Positions 1,932 to 54,700 of a stretch of DNA of 60,605 nt are shown here, piece after piece (position 1 is the first letter of the stretch; each line of letters begins with the position of its first letter). A program made the position numbers and the translations under genes. This DNA is from a virus. Taxonomy: Duplodnaviria; Caudoviricetes. A model generated the notes under the pieces. That model was given only the letters and a program-made list of their open reading frames with translations. It was not told where the DNA came from and made no database searches. Where the stretch lies: positions 1-60,605 of IMG/VR virus record IMGVR_UViG_3300036770_004227, one strand, 5' to 3'.

Positions 1932-4100
1932 ATGAATTTATACGATTTATACTCAAGTAAAAAAATAAATCTTATCGAAAATCCCATTTCTGCTAGTGAC
2001 GTTGAAAAACAAATCATAGATGAAAATCTACACAAATGGTTTAAAGAAAAATGGGTTCGTTTTGGACCAGATGGTAAAATACGAGGAGATTGCGCCAGAG
2101 ATGATGACAGTGAAGGCAAGCCAAAATGCTTACCTCAATCAAAAGCACATAGTTTAGGAAAAAAAGGACGTGCTAGTGCTGCTAGTAGAAAACGCAGAGA
2201 AGATCCTAATCCAGAACGCCGTGGCGCAGCAATAAATGTTGCTACGAAAAAAGAAAGTATCAGTGAAGAAGAATTCTATGAAAAACTGATTATGCTAGAA
2301 TACAAGTTAGCAGAAGCAGAAAAAGCTTCAGACATGGGTACATCTCAGCCTGCAAGTAAAAATCGTGCATCAGAATTAGACAATTTACCTCTGCCGTCTT
2401 CAGCAGTTGTAACTTCACCCATGCCTCGTACAACTCGTTCAGATAATCGTCCAGCAGTTCAAGCAACATCATTGCCACCAGTTGGTAGAGAAATGCCATC
2501 TGCATTGAATACTACTAGATCAGTCAGTTCAAAAAAACCTGCCACTAACGCTATTGCGTCGCCGCCAACACAATCGTCGTACACCGGGCAACGCGGAGAC
2601 ACGAAATATAAACCGAGATCTATATATGATAAAGAAAACGCTGAATGGGAACAAAAAACAAAAAATTTACCTAGACAAAATCCAAAAGATTTACCACAAC
2701 CTAGTAAATTGTCTCGTATCATGGGCGGTGAAAAAATATCTGATGTCTTTATGACTCAACAAGATAAAGAAGATAAAGCAAGACGCATTCGATCTTATGC
2801 TGCACCAGCAAATCCATCATCTTCCGGACGTGTAACTCCTGCTCCATCTGGTAGTATTACACCACCAGAAAAATCAGCACCAGTTGCAAAGCCAAAAAGT
2901 ATTGGTGCTGCACCAACAACTATTCCATCTCGCACCGTATCAAATGCTCCCACTCAGACCAGTACAACAAATTCAAAACAATCCTGGCAAGATATATACA
3001 ACATCAATAAACAAACTATAGGTAAAAATCCAAACCTAATTAAAATAGGTCAAAAATTAAAATTACCAAATGGCAAAATTTATACAGTCGGCAAGGGAGA
3101 TAATCTTTATAACATTGCACGAGGCATATATAAAGGCAAGTTAAGTGAAGATTTTCAATTTAGTCCTGAACAAGAAAAATGGATAGGTTCGGGAGACAAA
3201 CAAAATCCATATATTTTAGCCAGAATGCCTGGCGCTAAACCGCCACCTGAGTATTTCTCAGATCCAAAAAATCAAAAAATTGCACAACAAATATATCAAT
3301 CACAGGACTTAGCGAACAAATGGCAACAATTTCGTCAAAGTGGATCATTGACTAGCAATATATTAAGTAGAGTTCCAGGTGTAAATAAAGCGGCAAACGT
3401 AATAGATATAGGAGCAAACGTCGTTAAGGGAGATTTTGCTGCCGCAGGCAAGCAAGCATTAGGTATGATACCAGCAGCAAAGCCAATTAATTTAGCATTA
3501 CAACAATCTGATGATCTTATTGGAAATATAAAAAAAGGTAATTATATCGGCGCAACAGGTGATGCGTTACGTACTGCTGCCGTAAATAAAATATCAAACA
3601 AATTAAACTTACCAAATCAAATAAAAGAAACAGAAAATACCTGTCCTCAATGTGGCGGTGTCGCATTAGATGATAAAATCTTAGCAGAAAAGAAAGATGC
3701 ATGCTATCACAAAGTAAAAAGCAGATATAAAGTTTGGCCAAGTGCATATGCAAGTGGCGCTCTAGTTAAGTGTCGCAAAAAAGGCGCAAAGAATTGGGGT
3801 AAATCAAAGACAAACGAAGATACAAATCTGTATTTCAACGTGGTGGGAACAGATAAGAAAACATTAATCTCTGAGTTTAAATTACAACACAATGCACGAG
3901 GATGGTACCTAAACGAAAATTCACCATCATCTCTTAAATTAGATGCTGTTCGTGCTTTTGGTATGCCACTTAGCGAAGAAGAATTAAATCCAATCGCATA
4001 TGATGGCACTGCCGCGACCATTGGCACCGACAACGGTAAGAGTCCAGTAGGATCTATACCAAAAAGTCAACACATAAATAAAAGAAGAGGTAAAGTGTAA
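1932..4100 (+). CDS. Multi-module virion protein with LysM-like module and DUF5872-like halves
   Basis: 722 aa; LysM-type WQDIYNINK..NPNLIKIGQKLKLP..YTVGKGDNLYNIA; basic modules LHKWFKEKWV and KVWPSAYASGALVKCRK. Confidence 0.6.
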   Translation: MNLYDLYSSKKINLIENPISASDVEKQIIDENLHKWFKEKWVRFGPDGKIRGDCARDDDSEGKPKCLPQSKAHSLGKKGRASAASRKRREDPNPERRGAAINVATKKESISEEEFYEKLIMLEYKLAEAEKASDMGTSQPASKNRASELDNLPLPSSAVVTSPMPRTTRSDNRPAVQATSLPPVGREMPSALNTTRSVSSKKPATNAIASPPTQSSYTGQRGDTKYKPRSIYDKENAEWEQKTKNLPRQNPKDLPQPSKLSRIMGGEKISDVFMTQQDKEDKARRIRSYAAPANPSSSGRVTPAPSGSITPPEKSAPVAKPKSIGAAPTTIPSRTVSNAPTQTSTTNSKQSWQDIYNINKQTIGKNPNLIKIGQKLKLPNGKIYTVGKGDNLYNIARGIYKGKLSEDFQFSPEQEKWIGSGDKQNPYILARMPGAKPPPEYFSDPKNQKIAQQIYQSQDLANKWQQFRQSGSLTSNILSRVPGVNKAANVIDIGANVVKGDFAAAGKQALGMIPAAKPINLALQQSDDLIGNIKKGNYIGATGDALRTAAVNKISNKLNLPNQIKETENTCPQCGGVALDDKILAEKKDACYHKVKSRYKVWPSAYASGALVKCRKKGAKNWGKSKTNEDTNLYFNVVGTDKKTLISEFKLQHNARGWYLNENSPSSLKLDAVRAFGMPLSEEELNPIAYDGTAATIGTDNGKSPVGSIPKSQHINKRRGKV

Positions 4101-4543
4101 TGGACGAATTAGCAAAAGCAATGAAAATTGCATTCAGTACTGAATTCAGTTTTTATTTAAAATCTCATTTTTATCACTGGAACGTCGAAGGTCCAGACTT
4201 TGATCAATATCATAATTTGTTTAGTAAAATATACGAAGAAGTATATGAAAGCATAGACGCATTTGCCGAAAATATTAGAAAACTAGGAACATATACTCCT
4301 GGTAGTTATACCAGACTTAGTATGTTGTCTCAAATAGATGATGAGTTGACAGTTCCACCAGCATTGGATATGATAAACGATTTATTAAATGACAGTGAAA
4401 AGTGCATTAAAATATTCAAAATGGTATACGATCTTTCAGAACGTGAGGGCGAAGTGGGATTAAGTGACTTCCTAGCGAATAGAATATCGGCTCATAAAAA
4501 ACATAGTTGGATGTTAAAGGCTACATTAAATGAACGAGTCTAA
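4100..4543 (+). CDS. dps: Dps / ferritin-like DNA-protecting protein
   Basis: Ferroxidase signature HFYHWNVEGPDF..H..F..IYE....D..AE.IR.LG and C-terminal HKKHSWML. Confidence 0.92.
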   Translation: MDELAKAMKIAFSTEFSFYLKSHFYHWNVEGPDFDQYHNLFSKIYEEVYESIDAFAENIRKLGTYTPGSYTRLSMLSQIDDELTVPPALDMINDLLNDSEKCIKIFKMVYDLSEREGEVGLSDFLANRISAHKKHSWMLKATLNERV

Positions 4544-4679
4544 TATTGTCCCAGCATCAGAAGAAACTATAAATACTACAGAAAATCTAGTCAAAGAACT
4601 TATTGTAGAACAAGTTCAATTTACCGATGATCTGGAAAACACAAATATCAATTATTTAAACTATTTAATAATTGGTTAA
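4530..4679 (+). CDS. Possible 49-aa acidic small protein (MNESNIVPAS...YLIIG)
   Basis: Open ATG..TAA frame overlapping the dps end; below the ORF-track cutoff; no recognisable motif. Confidence 0.3.
   Translation: MNESNIVPASEETINTTENLVKELIVEQVQFTDDLENTNINYLNYLIIG
4568..4575 (+). promoter_or_regulatory. Perfect T4 late promoter TATAAATA
   Basis: Exact T4 gp55 consensus; the only plus-strand element downstream before the convergent endonuclease is the structured 4681-4745 segment. Confidence 0.45.
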
Positions 4680-4680
4680 C

Positions 4681-4745
4681 AGTCTTGGCCTTAGGACCGA
4701 GTAGGTCGCCCCATACCTCAATACGATGAATTCGCTACTCAGACT
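4681..4745. ncRNA. Candidate small structured RNA with 23S rRNA H69-H71 complementarity
   Basis: GC-rich intergenic island; stems AGTCT/AGACT and GAGTAG/CTACTC; CCTTAGGACCG (4689-4699) and TTCGCTAC (4731-4738) are reverse complements of 23S CGGUCCUAAGG and GUAGCGAA. Confidence 0.4.
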
Positions 4746-5535
4746 ATTCAAAATGGGGCTTTTTTATAATTTTCCATCTTTTAACATGTGATCTAGTCCC
4801 ATTAATATGAGAACTTAAATTACCTCCACAATTAAACTCTTTACGAAATTCAGAATAAGTTTTATGTATTATTTCTAATGTATCTATGTTTTGAAATGTA
4901 TATAAGGCATTATTATATTTCCAATGATTTTTACCTGAGAATTTTTCTTTAACTTTCGGTCTTGCCCTTGCTCTTGCTATCAACCCATCAGGTCCTTTTA
5001 ATTTTTCAACTATTATTGGATCTAACATTGGATTTTTACCATTGAACAATTTCTTATCTTTATTTTTTTCTCTTTTTGTCCAATGATTTTCTCCTCGCTG
5101 TCTATCTCCTATTTTCTTTTTAGTTTCATTTGTTCTATTAGAACTGGCATTGCCTATATTTTTCTTATGCTCCTCTGACAGTTTTCTTCCAGTTAATGAT
5201 TTCTTCGTATTTTTACTTATTAATTGTCTAACTTCATCAGAAGGATTACTTAGTCCATCGCCTCCATCTGTTGTATTACGAAGTATACCCGTTCCTAAAT
5301 CTTTTCTGCCCCACCATTTTATCAATCTTCTTTCAATAGCCAAGGCACCTATCTCTGTTAAATTTTGTTCCAAAATGTAAATTCTATGTAAATTATTTGG
5401 TAATTTGCCAGAACCTGTATGTTTTACCCATGCTCTTTTATTACTTCCTTTTCCTATGTAATACGGTGTACCGTCATTTCGCAAATAAGCGTAGACATAA
5501 AATCCCGAAGGAGTATAATTTTTACTAAATATCAT
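4744..5535 (-). CDS. Free-standing GIY-YIG-type homing endonuclease with NUMOD3 repeats
   Basis: [21 protein letters not shown]...E..LI...GR.D.GTG.L.N.TDGGDG, then [18 protein letters not shown]3 motif; start moved to ATG 5535 behind a GGAG SD; opposite orientation to neighbours. Confidence 0.85.
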
Positions 5536-5612
5536 TGCTGGTTGCTCCATTTTAGCAATTAGAGTAGATGGGCACCCGACCAAAGTTGCCGCGATCTACA
5601 CTTTTATTTATC
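5533..5612 (-). promoter_or_regulatory. Late promoter plus structured leader of the homing endonuclease
   Basis: TAAATA (5605-5610, minus) followed by a GTAGAT/ATCTAC stem and TTGCT/AGCAA stems overlapping the SD and ATG. Confidence 0.55.
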
Positions 5613-5670
5613 AAATTTCTTTCATAACAATCTTAAATTTAATAAAATGATATTTTTGAAAGGTAACAGT

Positions 5671-5961
5671 ATGAACAACAAACATACAACTAACGATTAT
5701 GACGGACCTATTACATTCAGCGGCGATCAAAAAATAAAACTTTCACAAATAATTACTGAAGGCATGAATACTTTACACGAAATAGAAACATTAAGAGATG
5801 GATTAAGTGATACTATAAAGGCAATTTCCGAAGAAATGTCCATACCTTCGTCAATTTTAAAAAAAGCAATCAAGGTAGCACACAAGGCAGAATTTCATAA
5901 AACTAAAAAAGATCAAGAATTACTAGAAACAATCTTGGAAACAGTTGGACGAACCCTATAA
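5671..5961 (+). CDS. DsbA/GapR-like double-stranded DNA-binding protein
   Basis: Helical L..I..EG.....EIE.L..GL.DTIKAI.EE..I....LKKAIK.AHK pattern; directly upstream of the polymerase; ATG 5671 after AAGGT. Confidence 0.6.
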   Translation: MNNKHTTNDYDGPITFSGDQKIKLSQIITEGMNTLHEIETLRDGLSDTIKAISEEMSIPSSILKKAIKVAHKAEFHKTKKDQELLETILETVGRTL

Positions 5962-8903
5962 TGAGTTATATAGACGCTTTTCTTGAAAGAGAAAAAGATG
6001 TTATTCACGTTATAGAACGTGATGAGCACGGCGTTAGGCGTTATATAGACTATCCAACAAACTACGTTTTGTACTACGAAGATCAAAAAGGCAAATACCG
6101 TAGTGTATTCGGTGATAGTTTGAGTAAATTTAGTACCAGAAAGCACAGTGAATTTCAAAAAGAAAAACGTATACTTTCAAACAAAAAGTTATTTGAAAGT
6201 GACGTAAATCCTGTATTCAGATGTCTGGCTGACAATTATCTAGAACGTCCTGCGCCTAAACTACATACGGCATTTTTTGACATTGAATCAGATATGCAAC
6301 CATACGCTTATCCGAACTCACATGTTGTAAAAATTAAATCCATTCAAACAAACGTAATCAAAAATATAACCGTACATGAACTAAGTCACTTACATGGCAA
6401 GGATAACTACGTAGTATATGACACTGACGAACTTCGGTGGGTGAGCATACACGAATCCGCATATCTAAAACTAGGTCCAGGCTTTGCATCTACGTCTGAT
6501 CCATTCAACAAAGTAACTGCTATTACTCTGTACTTGGATTGGCTAGAACAATTAGTTACGTTATGCATTCCGCCAGCACACATTAGCATTGATGAGGCAA
6601 AACTACTTGTCGAAGATATTGAAAATGTTTTTATTTTCGAAAATGAAGTGGAAATGTTTGAAACATTCTTCATGCTGATTGAAGATGCTGATGTTCTTAC
6701 TGGATGGAATAGCGAGAGTTACGATATACCTTATTTGGTAAATCGTGTTATCAGAGTAATGAGTAAGGACGACACTAGAAAGTTCTGTTTACTAGATCAA
6801 CTGCCTAGACAACGAACCATAAATAAGTTCGGAAAAACAGAAACCACATATGATCTTTCCGGACGTGTTCACATGGACTATTTGCAACTGTACAAGAAGT
6901 ACAACTATGAACAACGACACAGTTACAAATTAGACTACATTGGTGAAATGGAAGTCGGAGAAACCAAGACTGCCTACGAAGGAACACTAGATCAACTGTA
7001 CAATCGTGACTGGGCAACTTTCATCAAGTACAACCGTCAAGACACCCTACTAGTATACAAAATTCATGCAAAACTGAAATTTTTAGACTTAGCCAATCAA
7101 CTAGCACACGAAAACACCGTACTCCTAAAAACAGTTATGGGCAGTGTTGCAATGATTGAGCAGGCAGTTATCAACGAAGCACATCAACGAAATTTAATTG
7201 TTCAAAACAAACCCATTGATTATAAGGACGATGACCACTATGAAGATGATGAAGACGAAGAAGATATCACAGCCGCCGGTGCCTTTGTTGCTACGCCCAA
7301 AAGGGGCATGCACGAATGGGTCGCGGCGTGCGACATTAACAGTCTGTACCCATCAGTTATCCGCGCTCTTAACATGGCACCGGAAACCATCGTTGGACAA
7401 CTGCGACAAACTTTAACTGAACGATATATCGAAGACAAGAAGAAAAAATTAGCAAGAGAAAAGAAAAATAAAACAGCCAAAGATATCACTGGACCAGTTC
7501 TATGGGAAGGGTTATTCGGTTCATTAGAATACACAGCAGTAATGAATCAAGAGCGTGATACGCTGATAACGGTAGACTGGGAACGTGGTGGCAGTGACAC
7601 ATACAGCGCCGCTGAACTATGGCAACTAATCTTTGATAGCAATCAACAGTGGATGTTAAGTGCTAATGGAACAATATTCACATACTCACAGGAGGGAGTT
7701 ATTCCGGGTCTACTAAGCAGATGGTATCAAGAACGTAAACAAATTCAAGCAAAGTTGAAACAGGCTACCACAAAAGAAGATCAGGAATTCCTACACAAGC
7801 GTCAGTTAGTTCGAAAGATTTTGCTAAACTCAGCATATGGTGCACTATTAAATCGCCATTGCAAATTCTACGATTTGCGAATAGGCCAAAGCGTTACCTT
7901 GTCTGGACGTCAGATTGTAAAACACATGGGTTCAAAGTTAAATGAACTTATCACTGGCAAGTATGATATTACGGGCGAGTCAGTTATTTACGGCGACACC
8001 GATTCTATTTACTATACTGTATGGCCAATTATCAAGAACAGCGTAAAAGAAAATTCACTGGCATGGTCTAAAGAACGTGCGATTGAAATTTATGATGATC
8101 TTGCCAATGATACTAACGCTAGTTTCCCACAGTTCATGAAAGATGCATTTCACTGTCCATTAAAGAATGGAGAAATCATCAAAGCGGGTAGAGAACTGGT
8201 AGGCGATCGTGCTATTTTCATTACGAAAAAGCGTTATGCAGTTAACATTTACGATCAAGAAGGTAAACGGCTAGATGTAAACGGATCACGTGGCAAGATA
8301 AAGGCTATGGGTCTAGACCTAAAACGCAGTGATACTCCTAAATTTGTTCAAAAATTTCTCTACGATGTTCTAGACAATGTATTAGCAGGTAAAGATAGAG
8401 AATCGATCATTGAACAAATTAAGAAGTTCAAAGAAGAGTTGTCTAATATGGAAAGTTGGCAAAAGGGTAGTCCCAAATCGGTAAACAATTTAACACTGTA
8501 CGCCAACAAGGCCAAATCAAATTCACTGAAAGTTGACACACATCTGTTTCAAATGGCAGAACTACGCGGCGATGCTAATATGCCTGGGCATGTTCGTGCT
8601 AGTCTAAACTGGAATTATTTGCGTAGTATGAATAAAGATAACTACAGTATGCAGATAGTTGATGGTATGCGAGTTGTTATATGTAAGTTGAAATCGAATC
8701 AATACAACTTTACAAGTATAGCCTATCCAACTGATGAGCTGCGATTACCAGAATGGTTCTTATCACTACCATTTGATGATGAAGGCATGGAAAACACACT
8801 CGTAGACGAGAAGATAGATAATCTACTATCAGTATTGAATTGGAATCTCAAAGATGCCACAAAAATAAACGACGATTTTGCCGAATTATTTGAATTTGTA
8901 TAA
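5961..8903 (+). CDS. gp43: Family B DNA polymerase (T4 gp43-like)
   Basis: Exo I FFDIE, Exo II GWNSESYD, Exo III YNRQD; polymerase motifs DINSLYPS, KILLNSAYG, YGDTDS, KKRY. Confidence 0.97.
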   Translation: MSYIDAFLEREKDVIHVIERDEHGVRRYIDYPTNYVLYYEDQKGKYRSVFGDSLSKFSTRKHSEFQKEKRILSNKKLFESDVNPVFRCLADNYLERPAPKLHTAFFDIESDMQPYAYPNSHVVKIKSIQTNVIKNITVHELSHLHGKDNYVVYDTDELRWVSIHESAYLKLGPGFASTSDPFNKVTAITLYLDWLEQLVTLCIPPAHISIDEAKLLVEDIENVFIFENEVEMFETFFMLIEDADVLTGWNSESYDIPYLVNRVIRVMSKDDTRKFCLLDQLPRQRTINKFGKTETTYDLSGRVHMDYLQLYKKYNYEQRHSYKLDYIGEMEVGETKTAYEGTLDQLYNRDWATFIKYNRQDTLLVYKIHAKLKFLDLANQLAHENTVLLKTVMGSVAMIEQAVINEAHQRNLIVQNKPIDYKDDDHYEDDEDEEDITAAGAFVATPKRGMHEWVAACDINSLYPSVIRALNMAPETIVGQLRQTLTERYIEDKKKKLAREKKNKTAKDITGPVLWEGLFGSLEYTAVMNQERDTLITVDWERGGSDTYSAAELWQLIFDSNQQWMLSANGTIFTYSQEGVIPGLLSRWYQERKQIQAKLKQATTKEDQEFLHKRQLVRKILLNSAYGALLNRHCKFYDLRIGQSVTLSGRQIVKHMGSKLNELITGKYDITGESVIYGDTDSIYYTVWPIIKNSVKENSLAWSKERAIEIYDDLANDTNASFPQFMKDAFHCPLKNGEIIKAGRELVGDRAIFITKKRYAVNIYDQEGKRLDVNGSRGKIKAMGLDLKRSDTPKFVQKFLYDVLDNVLAGKDRESIIEQIKKFKEELSNMESWQKGSPKSVNNLTLYANKAKSNSLKVDTHLFQMAELRGDANMPGHVRASLNWNYLRSMNKDNYSMQIVDGMRVVICKLKSNQYNFTSIAYPTDELRLPEWFLSLPFDDEGMENTLVDEKIDNLLSVLNWNLKDATKINDDFAELFEFV

Positions 8904-54119: not shown

Positions 54120-54700
54120 TATAGCGACGCACCGCAAACTGCGACATCTACAGGCAAAATCTCAAACAGTGTATGGCTAGCATCGGCCTAAATTCGGATG
54201 CTCTAAACCTGGACCTCGGGTCGCAGGGACGAAAACCTTGGCGCTGTACCAAGAACTCAATCACTATCCTTTACAGGACGAAGATCGCCAATCCCGCGGT
54301 TTGATTGTTTGAACAGGTTTTATGGGTAAAAAGACGTGATAGCGATATCACACGGTTATATCAAAGGACAGCATCATTGATATAGCCCGCCGTTGTAAGA
54401 AAGACTGGATGAGTAGGTACCGGATAACCGCCTGCGTTACATTTCCTGTGTGTCAAAACACAGATGTTGTTGTAGTCCTGATGCTGTGTGGTTGTCAACT
54501 CAGATGAAAACACCACTTCATAGTAGAAATACTATGATTTTTTTCGCCCTTCGTGGGCGAAAGAGAGGCAGTAATCTAGATGAATGGTATCTCTTCTGAT
54601 TGGTTAATAATTATTCTTTAAGAAAAGATCGTCTAGTTAATTGAAGGAGCGATAGCGACTGAAAATTAACGACGACGATATGGGTGCGCCGCACCCATCA
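54120..54700 (+). ncRNA. Candidate large structured non-coding RNA (~580 nt)
   Basis: No ORF in the track; GC higher than flanks; more than 10 stems incl. GNRA-capped GTGATA-GCGA-TATCAC and TCATAGTA-GAAA-TACTATGA; 9-bp loop/distal pairing ACAGCATCA/TGATGCTGT; strand inferred from GNRA loops and G-U pairs. Confidence 0.7.
54680..54698. terminator. GC-rich hairpin between convergent units
   Basis: ATGGGTGC-GCC-GCACCCAT; no long U tract. Confidence 0.45.

What the first reader, a model, noticed from the sequence alone, without database searches (positions are those of the whole stretch)
4681..4745. Small structured element with two segments complementary to the 23S rRNA H69-H71 junction (I-CeuI site)
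Seen: CCTTAGGACCG (4689-4699) and TTCGCTAC (4731-4738) lie in a 65-nt GC-rich intergenic fold (AGTCT/AGACT outer stem, GAGTAG/CTACTC inner stem), downstream of dps and a perfect TATAAATA. Established: bacterial 23S rRNA reads CGGUCCUAAGGUAGCGAA at E. coli ~1920-1937, the H69/H70/H71 intersubunit-bridge region and also the I-CeuI and group I intron insertion region. The two phage segments are reverse complements of its adjacent halves, in permuted order. Inference: a late phage RNA that base-pairs with host 50S, or, on the minus strand, an rRNA mimic or decoy. Caveat: an 11-mer rRNA match alone is expected by chance in 60 kb; the signal is the second adjacent match in the same intergenic fold.
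Basis: partly seen in the sequence, partly recalled or inferred. Interest (0 to 1): 0.75.

Follow-up and report, generated by a model that had tools for sequence, protein, structure and literature searches.

The report
Phage RNA complementary to 23S rRNA
A small folded RNA gene, found once per genome in a group of giant uncultured phages, displays loops that exactly complement a universally conserved junction of bacterial large-subunit ribosomal RNA, which suggests these viruses use an antisense RNA against host ribosomes.

Summary
Window 4683-4765 (+) belongs to a previously undescribed structured RNA family with no Rfam match. I collected 202 distinct sequences. It occurs once per ~300-355 kb phage genome and always lies between dps and the ORF104/DNA-polymerase genes.

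Covariation supports three hairpins (P1, P2, P3) plus a pseudoknot between the P2 loop and the 3' tail.

The two flagged motifs are the P1 and P3 loops. They complement E. coli 23S 1921-1930 and 1930-1937.

The key result is that sister lineages replaced the P3 loop with different sequences that complement other strands of the same domain IV junction: 1968-1976, 1971-1978, and an added segment for 1825-1834. The P1 complementarity also lengthens in either direction along the rRNA, from 8 to 15 nt. Reversed, shuffled and opposite-strand controls sit at chance.

Best reading: an antisense RNA that base-pairs with the H67/H69/H70 junction strands of 23S rRNA, probably on immature or free 50S. Binding, expression and effect are untested. 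One common loop class (29 of 202) does not clearly fit.

The parts
4684..4701 (+). P1 hairpin. Stem C4684-G4701, U4685-A4700, U4686-G4699, G4687-C4698. The loop carries L1, CCUUAGGACC (4689-4698).
   Evidence: CM match. All five P1 pairs show changes on both sides across 100 homologues. RNAalifold predicts it independently. L1 complements 23S 1921-1930.
4703..4718 (+). P2 hairpin. Stem A4703-U4718, G4704-C4717, G4705-C4716, U4706-A4715. Loop 4707-4714.
   Evidence: 99.5% of cells paired, and all 4 pairs have compensatory changes.
4708..4759 (+). Pseudoknot: P2 loop GCCCCAU (4708-4714) pairs with AUGGGGC (4753-4759).
   Evidence: The pseudoknot was not in the CM, yet 94.9% of cells pair and 3 of 4 pairs change on both sides. 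Examples: L001 GUCCCAU/AUGGGAC, L008 GAACCCUA/UAGGGUUC, GGGUGCU/AGUGACC.
4720..4748 (+). P3 hairpin. Outer stem 4720-4723/4745-4748, inner stem 4727-4729/4739-4741. The loop is L3, AUUCGCUAC (4730-4738).
   Evidence: Covariation in both stems. UUCGCUAC complements 23S 1930-1937.
4760..4765 (+). U run after the pseudoknot 3' strand; a possible 3' end. Homology with relatives stops at 4764/4765.
   Evidence: A run of 4 or more T within 12 nt follows the element in 41 of 201 family members.
4744..5583 (-). Free-standing homing-endonuclease gene inserted just after the element. It is not part of the RNA family.
   Evidence: Pfam NUMOD3 and phrog_314 homing endonuclease. It is absent from L001, L002, L004 and L007, where homology resumes inside ORF104.
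4100..4543 (+). dps-like ferritin gene; conserved upstream neighbour.
   Evidence: Pfam PF00210. The element is found in 51 of 80 dps-selected loci, always on the same strand.
5647..8903 (+). ORF104 (phrog_639, transcriptional regulator) and family B DNA polymerase; conserved downstream neighbours.
   Evidence: Downstream on the same strand in 98 (ORF104) and 92 (polymerase) of 120 pattern-selected loci. Annotation.

Best explanation
Window 4683-4765 (+) encodes one member of a new family of phage structured RNAs of about 85-115 nt.

Its architecture is P1 with loop L1, then P2, then P3 with loop L3. The P2 loop pairs with the 3' tail to form a pseudoknot.

The conserved unpaired segments are antisense to strands that meet at the central junction of 23S rRNA domain IV:
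- L1 pairs with the 3' strand of H69 and the H69-H70 linker (core 1924-1930, extending to 1917-1933 in some lineages).
- L3 pairs, depending on lineage, with 1929-1937, 1968-1976 or 1971-1978.
- One lineage adds a segment for 1825-1834, the 5' strand of H67.

I infer that the RNA base-pairs with 23S rRNA when these strands are not yet, or not stably, folded: in nascent rRNA, in late 50S precursors, or possibly in free 50S. By clamping the junction strands it would hinder formation of H67/H69/H70-71, and so 50S maturation or subunit joining during infection.

Shown here: the family, its fold, single copy, synteny, strand, and non-random, lineage-shifting complementarity.

Inferred: transcription, physical pairing, and the consequence for ribosomes.
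For: 1. A real RNA family.
- I collected 202 distinct sequences.
- The CM hit in the window scores 58.1 bits, E 1.4e-16, and is the only hit in 60.6 kb.
- There is one strong hit in each of 5 of 5 phage genomes of 300-355 kb.

2. The fold.
- On 100 homologues, 89.0% of cells pair against 61.6% in shuffles.
- The covariation score is 0.673 against 0.201, reached by 0 of 500 shuffles. Slid controls give at most 0.095. 20 of 21 pairs change on both sides.
- RNAalifold recovers P1, P2 and P3: 14 pairs, all with compensatory changes.

3. Complementarity, checked on the fetched E. coli rrlH.
- L1 10-mer matches 1921-1930. Shuffles found a match this long anywhere in the rRNAs 20 times in 2000.
- Class 1 L3 8-mer matches 1930-1937. 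Shuffles matched inside 23S 1815-1985 16 times in 2000.
- Class 3 L3 8-mer matches 1971-1978 (9 in 2000).
- Class 3 extra segment, a 10-mer, matches 1825-1834 (6 in 2000 anywhere, 0 in that region).
- Class 4 L3 9-mer matches 1968-1976 (3 in 2000). L469 extends this to a 10-mer.
- Classes 3 and 4 were retrieved with a pattern containing neither L1 nor L3.

4. The L1 block slides and lengthens only along the rRNA sequence: 1920-1930, 1920-1931, 1921-1933, 1919-1933, 1917-1931, 1924-1933 and others, 8-15 nt.

5. Controls. Complementary 8-mers falling in 23S 1815-1980 number 1274 and occur in 202 of 202 sequences. Reversed sequences give 19, the opposite strand 40, and shuffles a mean of 45 with a maximum of 70.

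6. Targets.
- In the Rfam LSU consensus, 1930-1934 and 1963-1971 are single strands of the domain IV multiloop, and 1830-1833/1972-1975 form H67.
- The 17-mer is also exact in an Endozoicomonas genome and in a cyanobacterial MAG.
- No equivalent target exists in the phage genomes beyond control level.

7. Plausibility.
- In immature 45S/44.5S particles, H68 and H71 lack density and H69 is non-native (PMC5041480, passages).
- A PNA against H69 inhibits E. coli growth, as reported in a review (PMC7038079, passages).
Against: - No transcript, binding or phenotype data exist, and no cultured phage carries the element.
- Class 2, the second commonest L3 class (AGUCGUGC, 29 of 202), has only a 6-mer complement (1964-1969), which is not significant (150 of 2000 shuffles).
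- The best match of the class 5 loop lies elsewhere in the rRNAs and is not significant.
- 3 of 202 sequences lack L3 altogether.
- Some L1 variants mismatch the rRNA: CCCUAGG, CCUCAGG..GGUCC..GGAAC. In two of them the changed bases covary with an internal partner (CCCU/GGGG, CCUC/GAGG), so part of L1 can be paired within the RNA.
- Closed 9-10 nt hairpin loops cannot pair along their whole length without strain.
- The L1 and L3 targets overlap at 1929-1933 in many members, so both cannot pair fully at once.
- In mature ribosomes the target is folded.
- The family sequences are related to each other, and two retrieval patterns contained the motifs. The 202-sequence counts therefore overstate independence; only the class-level tests are roughly independent.
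- The class 3 and class 4 loops share ACGCCA.
- Classes were matched to the rRNA after they were seen.
- E. coli rRNA stands in for an unknown host.
Confidence: 0.6

Rival explanations
1. The pairing with 23S rRNA is real but helps the phage's use of ribosomes rather than blocking them. The RNA could shield the H69-H70 linker of unassembled rRNA from host rRNA-cleaving abortive-infection toxins. Alternatively it could tether 50S or 70S particles to the phage transcript that carries it.
For: The complementarity evidence is the same as for the main explanation. The element is embedded in a gene-dense, co-oriented operon, directly after a stop codon in 95 of 130 instances and upstream of ORF104/polymerase, so an action in cis is possible. 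That MazF-type toxins cut 23S in the H70 loop is recalled, not checked here.
Against: Bacterial initiation starts on 30S, so a 50S tether has no obvious benefit. No toxin or defence gene was linked to the element. Its position next to a stop codon is expected in any compact phage genome.
Confidence: 0.15
2. The RNA is self-contained (protein-binding sRNA, ribozyme, ligand sensor, or 3'-end stabiliser/terminator), and its loops resemble rRNA complements by coincidence.
For: The fold is compact and includes a pseudoknot. Class 2 and the loop-less members keep P1, P2 and the pseudoknot without a convincing second rRNA match. L1's CCUU can pair internally. A T run follows 41 of 201 members. The whole scan covers many windows, so rare coincidences will surface.
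Against: At least four separately defined segments (L1, class 1 L3, class 3/4 L3, class 3 extra segment) all map to one 160-nt rRNA region, each with shuffle frequencies of 0-1%. The L1 extensions follow the rRNA sequence in both directions. Reversed, sense and shuffled controls are at chance. 119 of 201 members have no T run, late-promoter-like or TTGAC motif after the tail, so this is not a generic terminator. There is no Rfam match.
Confidence: 0.15
3. A DNA-level element (promoter or upstream element of ORF104/polymerase, or homing-endonuclease target), or a minus-strand transcript that mimics rRNA.
For: A TTGAC or late-promoter-like motif follows some copies. L017, L020 and L021 contain TTGACA-17-TATAAT/TATACT inside P3. 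A homing endonuclease sits beside the window's copy.
Against: Compensatory changes with G-U 107 against A-C 41 point to plus-strand RNA. The endonuclease gene is absent from close relatives. Promoter-like motifs are present in a minority only. Sense identity to rRNA is at chance.
Confidence: 0.04

Closest known systems
Eukaryotic and archaeal rRNA-pairing small RNAs (U3, snR30, box C/D and H/ACA guides)
   Same: Small structured RNAs that use several short antisense segments to pair with conserved pre-rRNA strands during ribosome assembly.
   Different: No box C motif in 0 of 202 sequences. No known partner proteins. Encoded by a phage and directed at bacterial 23S rRNA. Probably obstructive rather than needed for assembly. 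The comparison is recalled from general knowledge.
Synthetic antisense PNA or oligomers against 23S helix 69
   Same: Antisense pairing to the H69 region of 23S rRNA. A PNA against H69 inhibits E. coli growth (PMC7038079, passages seen).
   Different: Those are man-made linear oligomers. This is a natural, folded, multi-pronged RNA aimed at the 3' strand of H69 and the adjoining junction strands.
Group II intron EBS1/EBS2 loops pairing with IBS1/IBS2
   Same: Two separate loops of one folded RNA pair with adjacent target segments, and the loops lie in the same 5'-to-3' order as their targets.
   Different: No intron domains, no Rfam intron match, about 85 nt, no reverse transcriptase nearby. 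The comparison is recalled.
Trans-acting antisense sRNAs of bacteria and phages
   Same: Hairpin-loop-presented antisense segments, small size, compact gene.
   Different: Known targets are mRNAs or plasmid/phage RNAs. My literature searches found no natural phage or bacterial RNA described as antisense to rRNA.
Ribosome-binding 3' elements of plant RNA viruses (tRNA-shaped structures) and rRNA-complementary TURBS motifs
   Same: Viral hairpin-plus-pseudoknot elements, or short motifs, that contact ribosomal subunits or rRNA.
   Different: Eukaryotic systems that act in cis to promote translation. No sequence or fold similarity was tested. Recalled only.

Membership tests
Any Rfam 15 family | Covariance-model match at or near the gathering score | tested here: not met
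   No match over the element in the window at the gathering threshold or at E up to 10. None in 12 loci with typical variants, nor in L068 at E up to 10 apart from a 17-nt miRNA chance hit.
tRNA / tmRNA | Cloverleaf or tmRNA detected by ARAGORN | tested here: not met
   0 genes in the window.
Intrinsic terminator | G+C-rich hairpin with a 3-8 nt loop followed directly by a U run | tested here: not met
   The terminator scan finds none at the element. Only 41 of 201 family members have a T run within 12 nt of the tail. In the window, the pseudoknot 3' strand is followed by U6.
Box C/D guide RNA | Box C (RUGAUGA) and box D (CUGA) flanking the antisense segment | tested here: not met
   RUGAUGA is present in 0 of 202 sequences.
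H/ACA guide RNA | Pseudouridylation pocket with the antisense halves in reversed order, and ACA 3 nt from the 3' end | tested here: inconclusive
   The antisense segments lie in the same order as their targets, unlike a pocket. The 3' end is unknown, so the ACA box cannot be judged.
Riboswitch / cis-regulatory leader | Sits in the 5' UTR of a consistent downstream gene, with an expression platform | tested here: inconclusive
   ORF104/polymerase is consistently downstream (98 of 120). However, promoter-like motifs lie between the element and the gene in some copies, and distances range from about 40 to over 5000 nt.
Trans-acting antisense RNA (generic kind) | Conserved unpaired segments complementary to a defined target RNA; demonstrated pairing | tested here: inconclusive
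   Complementarity is met and exceeds chance. Pairing itself cannot be tested with these tools.
Self-cleaving ribozyme classes (twister, pistol, hatchet, hammerhead, HDV-like) | Match to the class consensus | tested here: not met
   No Rfam match. A new ribozyme class cannot be excluded by computation.

The most novel reading that the evidence does not exclude
Giant T4-like phages carry a dedicated antisense 'staple' RNA against the host ribosome. Its modular loops have been retargeted repeatedly in evolution among the strands of the 23S domain IV junction (1825-1834, 1917-1937, 1968-1978). It traps the late-folding H67-H71 region and so halts or redirects 50S maturation and subunit joining. 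This would be a natural, RNA-only way of taking over the ribosome, and the first rRNA-directed regulatory RNA known in bacteria or their viruses.
Probability: 0.4. Interest if true: 0.95.

Novelty: categorically new. Interest (0 to 1): 0.88.

Why it matters
If the pairing is real, this is the first natural RNA from a bacterial virus known to target ribosomal RNA itself. The target site is universal across bacteria.

It would:
- add an RNA-based mechanism to phage takeover of translation;
- provide a natural tool for probing late folding of 23S domain IV;
- show which junction strands evolution finds accessible, which matters for antisense antibacterial design.

The prediction can be tested directly with an 85-nt transcript and E. 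coli ribosomes. Even without the function, the work defines a widespread, well-supported structured RNA family that is absent from Rfam.

Tried and rejected
- **Single-sequence folding.** It gave no signal: z = +0.47 for the 65 nt, -1.0 and -1.6 for 100 nt on the two strands.
They failed the comparative test.
- **Cultured phages.** blastn of the locus and of two family members against cultured phages found nothing relevant.
- **Bacterial genomes.** The pattern scan gave 6 hits. Three are chance matches inside coding sequence. Three look like phage contigs inside MAGs.
- **Expression.** No RNA holder was listed for the window.
- **Target inside the phages.** None was found beyond control level.
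- **RNAduplex-style scan.** Whole RNAs scanned against rRNA windows gave noisy results. 23S 1901-1930 ranked first to third for 8 of 9 representatives and was outside the top five for L255, and unrelated sites scored similarly. I do not rely on it.
- **P2 hairpin and 16S.** CGGCUGCUG is a 9-mer complement of 16S 519-527. Variant P2 loops scatter over the rRNAs at chance level, so I do not claim a 16S target.
- **Tail and 23S 1099-1105.** The 7-mer match is not significant.
- **Class 2 and class 5 loops.** They gave no significant rRNA match.
- **Two later pattern scans.** They were unspecific. The class 3 pattern added no new members. The class 4 pattern added 7, after I dropped 2 of 9 filtered rows (L429, L536) as chance matches.
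- **Other ideas.** I considered and dropped a tRNA-like reading, an RNA-repair splint and a group I guide sequence, on topology and the absence of defining features.
- **Tools.** Supplementary files of papers were not consulted.

Full report
**1. The observation**

CCTTAGGACCG is at 4689-4699 and TTCGCTAC at 4731-4738, within ATTCGCTAC 4730-4738. The stretch has about 0.48 G+C against roughly 0.3 around it.

Gene context:
- Upstream on the plus strand are a 722-aa protein, a dps-like ferritin gene (4100-4543, PF00210) and a 49-codon ORF ending at 4679.
- Downstream on the minus strand is a NUMOD3/homing-endonuclease ORF (4744-5583).
- Then follow ORF104 (5647-5961, phrog_639) and a family B DNA polymerase.

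TATAAATA is at 4568-4575.

I fetched the E. coli K-12 rrnH operon to check the rRNA claim from data rather than memory. GGTCCTAAGG is 23S 1921-1930 and GTAGCGAA is 1930-1937, which makes 17 contiguous nucleotides sharing G1930.

Within the window alone nothing is significant. The motifs occur about as often as in shuffles. The 65-nt fold is no more stable than shuffles (z = +0.47). ARAGORN and Rfam find nothing at the site.

**2. A conserved RNA family**

The window is a 17%-complete fragment of a large phage. Loci fetched through the dps protein showed both motifs at the same relative position in close relatives. They also appear in distant ones with only 55-75% Dps identity, and the sequence between the motifs differs there.

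Distribution:
That gave 143 instances and 130 distinct sequences.
- A covariance model built from 25 short-type members finds a single hit in the window: 4680-4763, 58.1 bits, E 1.4e-16.
- It finds one strong hit in each of five phage genomes of 300-355 kb. Two of them have terminal repeats and are 100% complete. One also has a weak, degenerate second copy.
- It finds 51 hits at E of 5.6e-5 or better in 80 dps-selected loci, all on the dps strand.

Synteny in 120 pattern-selected loci: an ORF104 homologue lies downstream on the same strand in 98, the polymerase in 92, and dps upstream in 41. The conserved order is therefore (722-aa gene)-dps-element-ORF104-polymerase.

An ORF of at least 60 open codons ends 3-38 nt before L1 in 95 of 130 distinct instances, and 35 have none.

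No cultured phage in the collection carries the element by blastn. Of 6 pattern hits in 185,579 species genomes, 3 are chance hits in coding sequence and 3 look like phage contigs in MAGs. Rfam has no family for it.

**3. The fold**

On 100 homologues they pair in 53.9% of cells against 52.0% in shuffles, with a covariation score of 0.124 against 0.111.

The supported structure is as follows:
- **P1** encloses L1. Many members have an extra hairpin inserted after L1.
- **P2** is a 4-bp stem.
- **P3** has an outer and an inner stem and encloses L3.
- **Pseudoknot:** the P2 loop pairs with the 3' tail.

Support on the same 100 sequences:
- 89.0% of cells pair against 61.6% in shuffles.
- The score is 0.673 against 0.201, reached by 0 of 500 shuffles. 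Slid controls give at most 0.095.
- 20 of 21 pairs change on both sides.
- The alignment was fitted to P1-P3, which favours those helices. The pseudoknot was not in the model, yet 94.9% of its cells pair and 3 of 4 pairs change on both sides.

RNAalifold independently returns P1, P2 and P3: 14 pairs, all with compensatory changes. G-U pairs outnumber A-C 107 to 41 in the helices, so the plus strand is the RNA strand.

In the window:
- P1 is 4684-4687/4698-4701.
- P2 is 4703-4706/4715-4718.
- The pseudoknot is 4708-4714 with 4753-4759. L001 has the double change GUCCCAU/AUGGGAC.
- P3 is 4720-4723/4745-4748 and 4727-4729/4739-4741.
- A U6 run follows.

**4. Is the rRNA complementarity more than chance?**

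To sample variation without requiring L1 or L3, I scanned for the P2 loop plus tail, then for the L1 core plus tail. Pooled, this gave 202 distinct family sequences. Seven further class 4 members came from a later scan.

*L1.* Its core is CCUUAGG. Its perfect complementary block on 23S varies by lineage: 1920-1930, 1920-1931, 1921-1933, 1919-1933, 1917-1931, 1924-1933 and others, 8-15 nt. When extra loop or flanking bases are present, they follow the rRNA sequence in either direction.

*L3 classes* (for counts; for matches):

| Class | Loop | Count (of 202) | Best complement on 23S |
|---|---|---|---|
| 1 | (A/C/U)UCGCUAC | 155 (+2 with CCGCUAC) | 1930-1937; often 1929-1937 |
| 2 | AGUCGUGC | 29 | 6-mer 1964-1969, not significant |
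| 3 | UUACGCCAG | 7 | 1971-1978 |
| 4 | (A)ACGCCAUUC | 3 (+7) | 1968-1976; L469 1968-1977 |
| 5 | CCGGGAAU | 3 | none significant |
| none | no L3 | 3 | not applicable |

Class 3 members also carry AGGCGUCA(CA) before P2, which complements 1825/1827-1834.

In class 4 the P3 stems differ from member to member while the loop stays fixed.

*Shuffle tests of each motif against 16S, 23S and 5S* (2000 shuffles each):
- L1 10-mer: a match this long anywhere in 20.
- Class 1 L3: inside 23S 1815-1985 in 16.
- Class 3 L3: 9.
- Class 3 extra segment: 6 anywhere, 0 in the region.
- Class 4 L3: 3.
- Class 2: 150, not significant.
- Class 5: best match elsewhere, not significant.

*Family-wide 8-mer test*: 1274 complementary hits fall in 23S 1815-1980, and 202 of 202 sequences have at least one. 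Reversed sequences give 19. The opposite strand, which tests sense identity and hence the mimic idea, gives 40. Shuffles give a mean of 45 and a maximum of 70.

*Complement or mimic?* For class 3, the complement reading beats a mimic reading. The extra segment matches the complement of 1825-1834 at 10 of 10 positions. By my own count, it matches the sense of 1971-1980 at only 6 of 10.

*Caveats:*
- The 202 sequences are related to each other, and two retrieval patterns contained the motifs.
- Class 3 and class 4 loops share ACGCCA.
- Within class 3, the extra segment and the loop can also pair with each other over 5 bp.
- The classes were compared with the rRNA after I had seen them.

Even counting only L1, class 1 L3, the class 3/4 loop with its two different extensions, and the non-palindromic flanks of the class 3 segment, several roughly independent 0.1-1% events fall in one 160-nt region. 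I consider coincidence unlikely.

**5. What the targets are**

In the Rfam LSU consensus aligned to E. coli:
- H69 is 1906-1911/1919-1924.
- C1925-G1929 forms a minimal hairpin.
- 1930-1934 and 1963-1971 are single strands of the domain IV multiloop.
- G1935 pairs with C1962.
- H67 is 1830-1833/1972-1975.

All targeted segments therefore meet at one junction (H67/H68/H69/H70-71).

The consensus is upper-case, meaning highly conserved, through CCUAAGGUAGCGAAAUUCCUUG. The 17-mer is exact in E. coli, in an Endozoicomonas genome (2 copies) and in a cyanobacterial MAG. Three other MAGs gave no match, and those genomes may be incomplete. The phage genomes contain no such target beyond control level.

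**6. Mechanism**

*Shown:* a single-copy, plus-strand structured RNA whose exposed segments are selected to complement junction strands of 23S domain IV.

*Inferred:* the RNA pairs with these strands while they are unfolded.

*Supporting context from papers (passages only):*
- In immature 45S/44.5S particles, H68 and H71 have no density and H69 is displaced (PMC5041480).
- Extra pseudouridines at 1940 and 1944 interfere with assembly (PMC5449589).
- A PNA against H69 inhibits E. coli growth, as reported in a review (PMC7038079).

I therefore favour a clamp that hinders H67/H69/H70 formation, and so 50S maturation or subunit joining.

*Unresolved:*
- Loop sterics limit full pairing of a closed 9-10 nt loop.
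- The L1 and L3 targets overlap at 1929-1933.
- Class 2 has no clear target.
- It is unknown whether the RNA acts in trans or as part of the upstream mRNA.
- Features after the tail vary across 201 members: T run 41, late-promoter-like 26, TTGAC 20, none of these 119. The first three counts may overlap. TATAAATA lies upstream in only 8 of 197.

**7. Comparison and novelty**

Functionally the nearest analogues are snoRNA-type pre-rRNA binders and man-made antisense oligomers against H69. Topologically, the nearest analogue is the two-loop EBS/IBS recognition of group II introns. None passes a membership test here.

Four full-text searches found no natural phage or bacterial RNA described as antisense to rRNA. 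Those searches cover open-access papers and bioRxiv only.

**8. Verdict**

- The fold is corrected.
- The central interpretation is supported comparatively but untested experimentally.
- Interest is high.

Noticed in passing
window 54175-54310 (+): Full-length match to Rfam RF01718, Polynucleobacter-1 RNA (114.7 bits against a gathering score of 37, E 3.5e-24). This is a second structured RNA in the same phage fragment.
   Followed up: no
window 4744-5583 (-), insertion about 4765-5640: A NUMOD3/GIY-YIG-like homing-endonuclease gene sits directly after the RNA element. Its last codons read into the element's pseudoknot/U-run region. Relatives L001, L002, L004 and L007 lack it, so homology stops at 4764/4765 and resumes inside ORF104. 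A 56-nt stretch of it (window about 5255-5310) matches Synechococcus phage S-SRM01 at 85.7% identity, under a gene annotated there as translation initiation factor 2.
   Followed up: partly
family-wide; P2 hairpin (window equivalent 4706-4715, where the sequence differs): The consensus P2 hairpin CGGCUGCUG is a perfect 9-mer complement of 16S rRNA 519-527, in the 530-loop region. The consensus tail AGUGAGC complements 23S 1099-1105. Variant P2 loops scatter at chance level, so the meaning is unclear.
   Followed up: partly
L207 (G004:C1:76955-77020): One complete 353-kb phage genome has a second, degenerate copy (30.3 bits). It keeps P2, the tail and a UCGCUAC loop but lacks an intact L1.
   Followed up: no
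L212, L213 (Haliscomenobacter MAG) and L209 (MAG labelled Bifidobacterium): Typical family members occur on contigs binned into bacterial MAGs. These are probably mis-binned phage contigs, though the Haliscomenobacter case could hint at a host.
   Followed up: no
window 4530-4679 (+): The 49-codon ORF between dps and the element has homologues only in the closest relatives (1 of 120 pattern loci by tblastn). It contains the TATAAATA at 4568-4575. It may not be a gene.
   Followed up: partly
L017, L020, L021 (P3 region): In three members the P3 hairpin doubles as a near-perfect sigma-70 promoter, TTGACA/T-17 nt-TATAAT or TATACT, with the conserved L3 loop in the spacer.
   Followed up: no
window, both strands: TATAAATA occurs only 4 times in 60.6 kb, fewer than in shuffles (mean 10.4). 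This fragment is not rich in T4-type late promoters.
   Followed up: no
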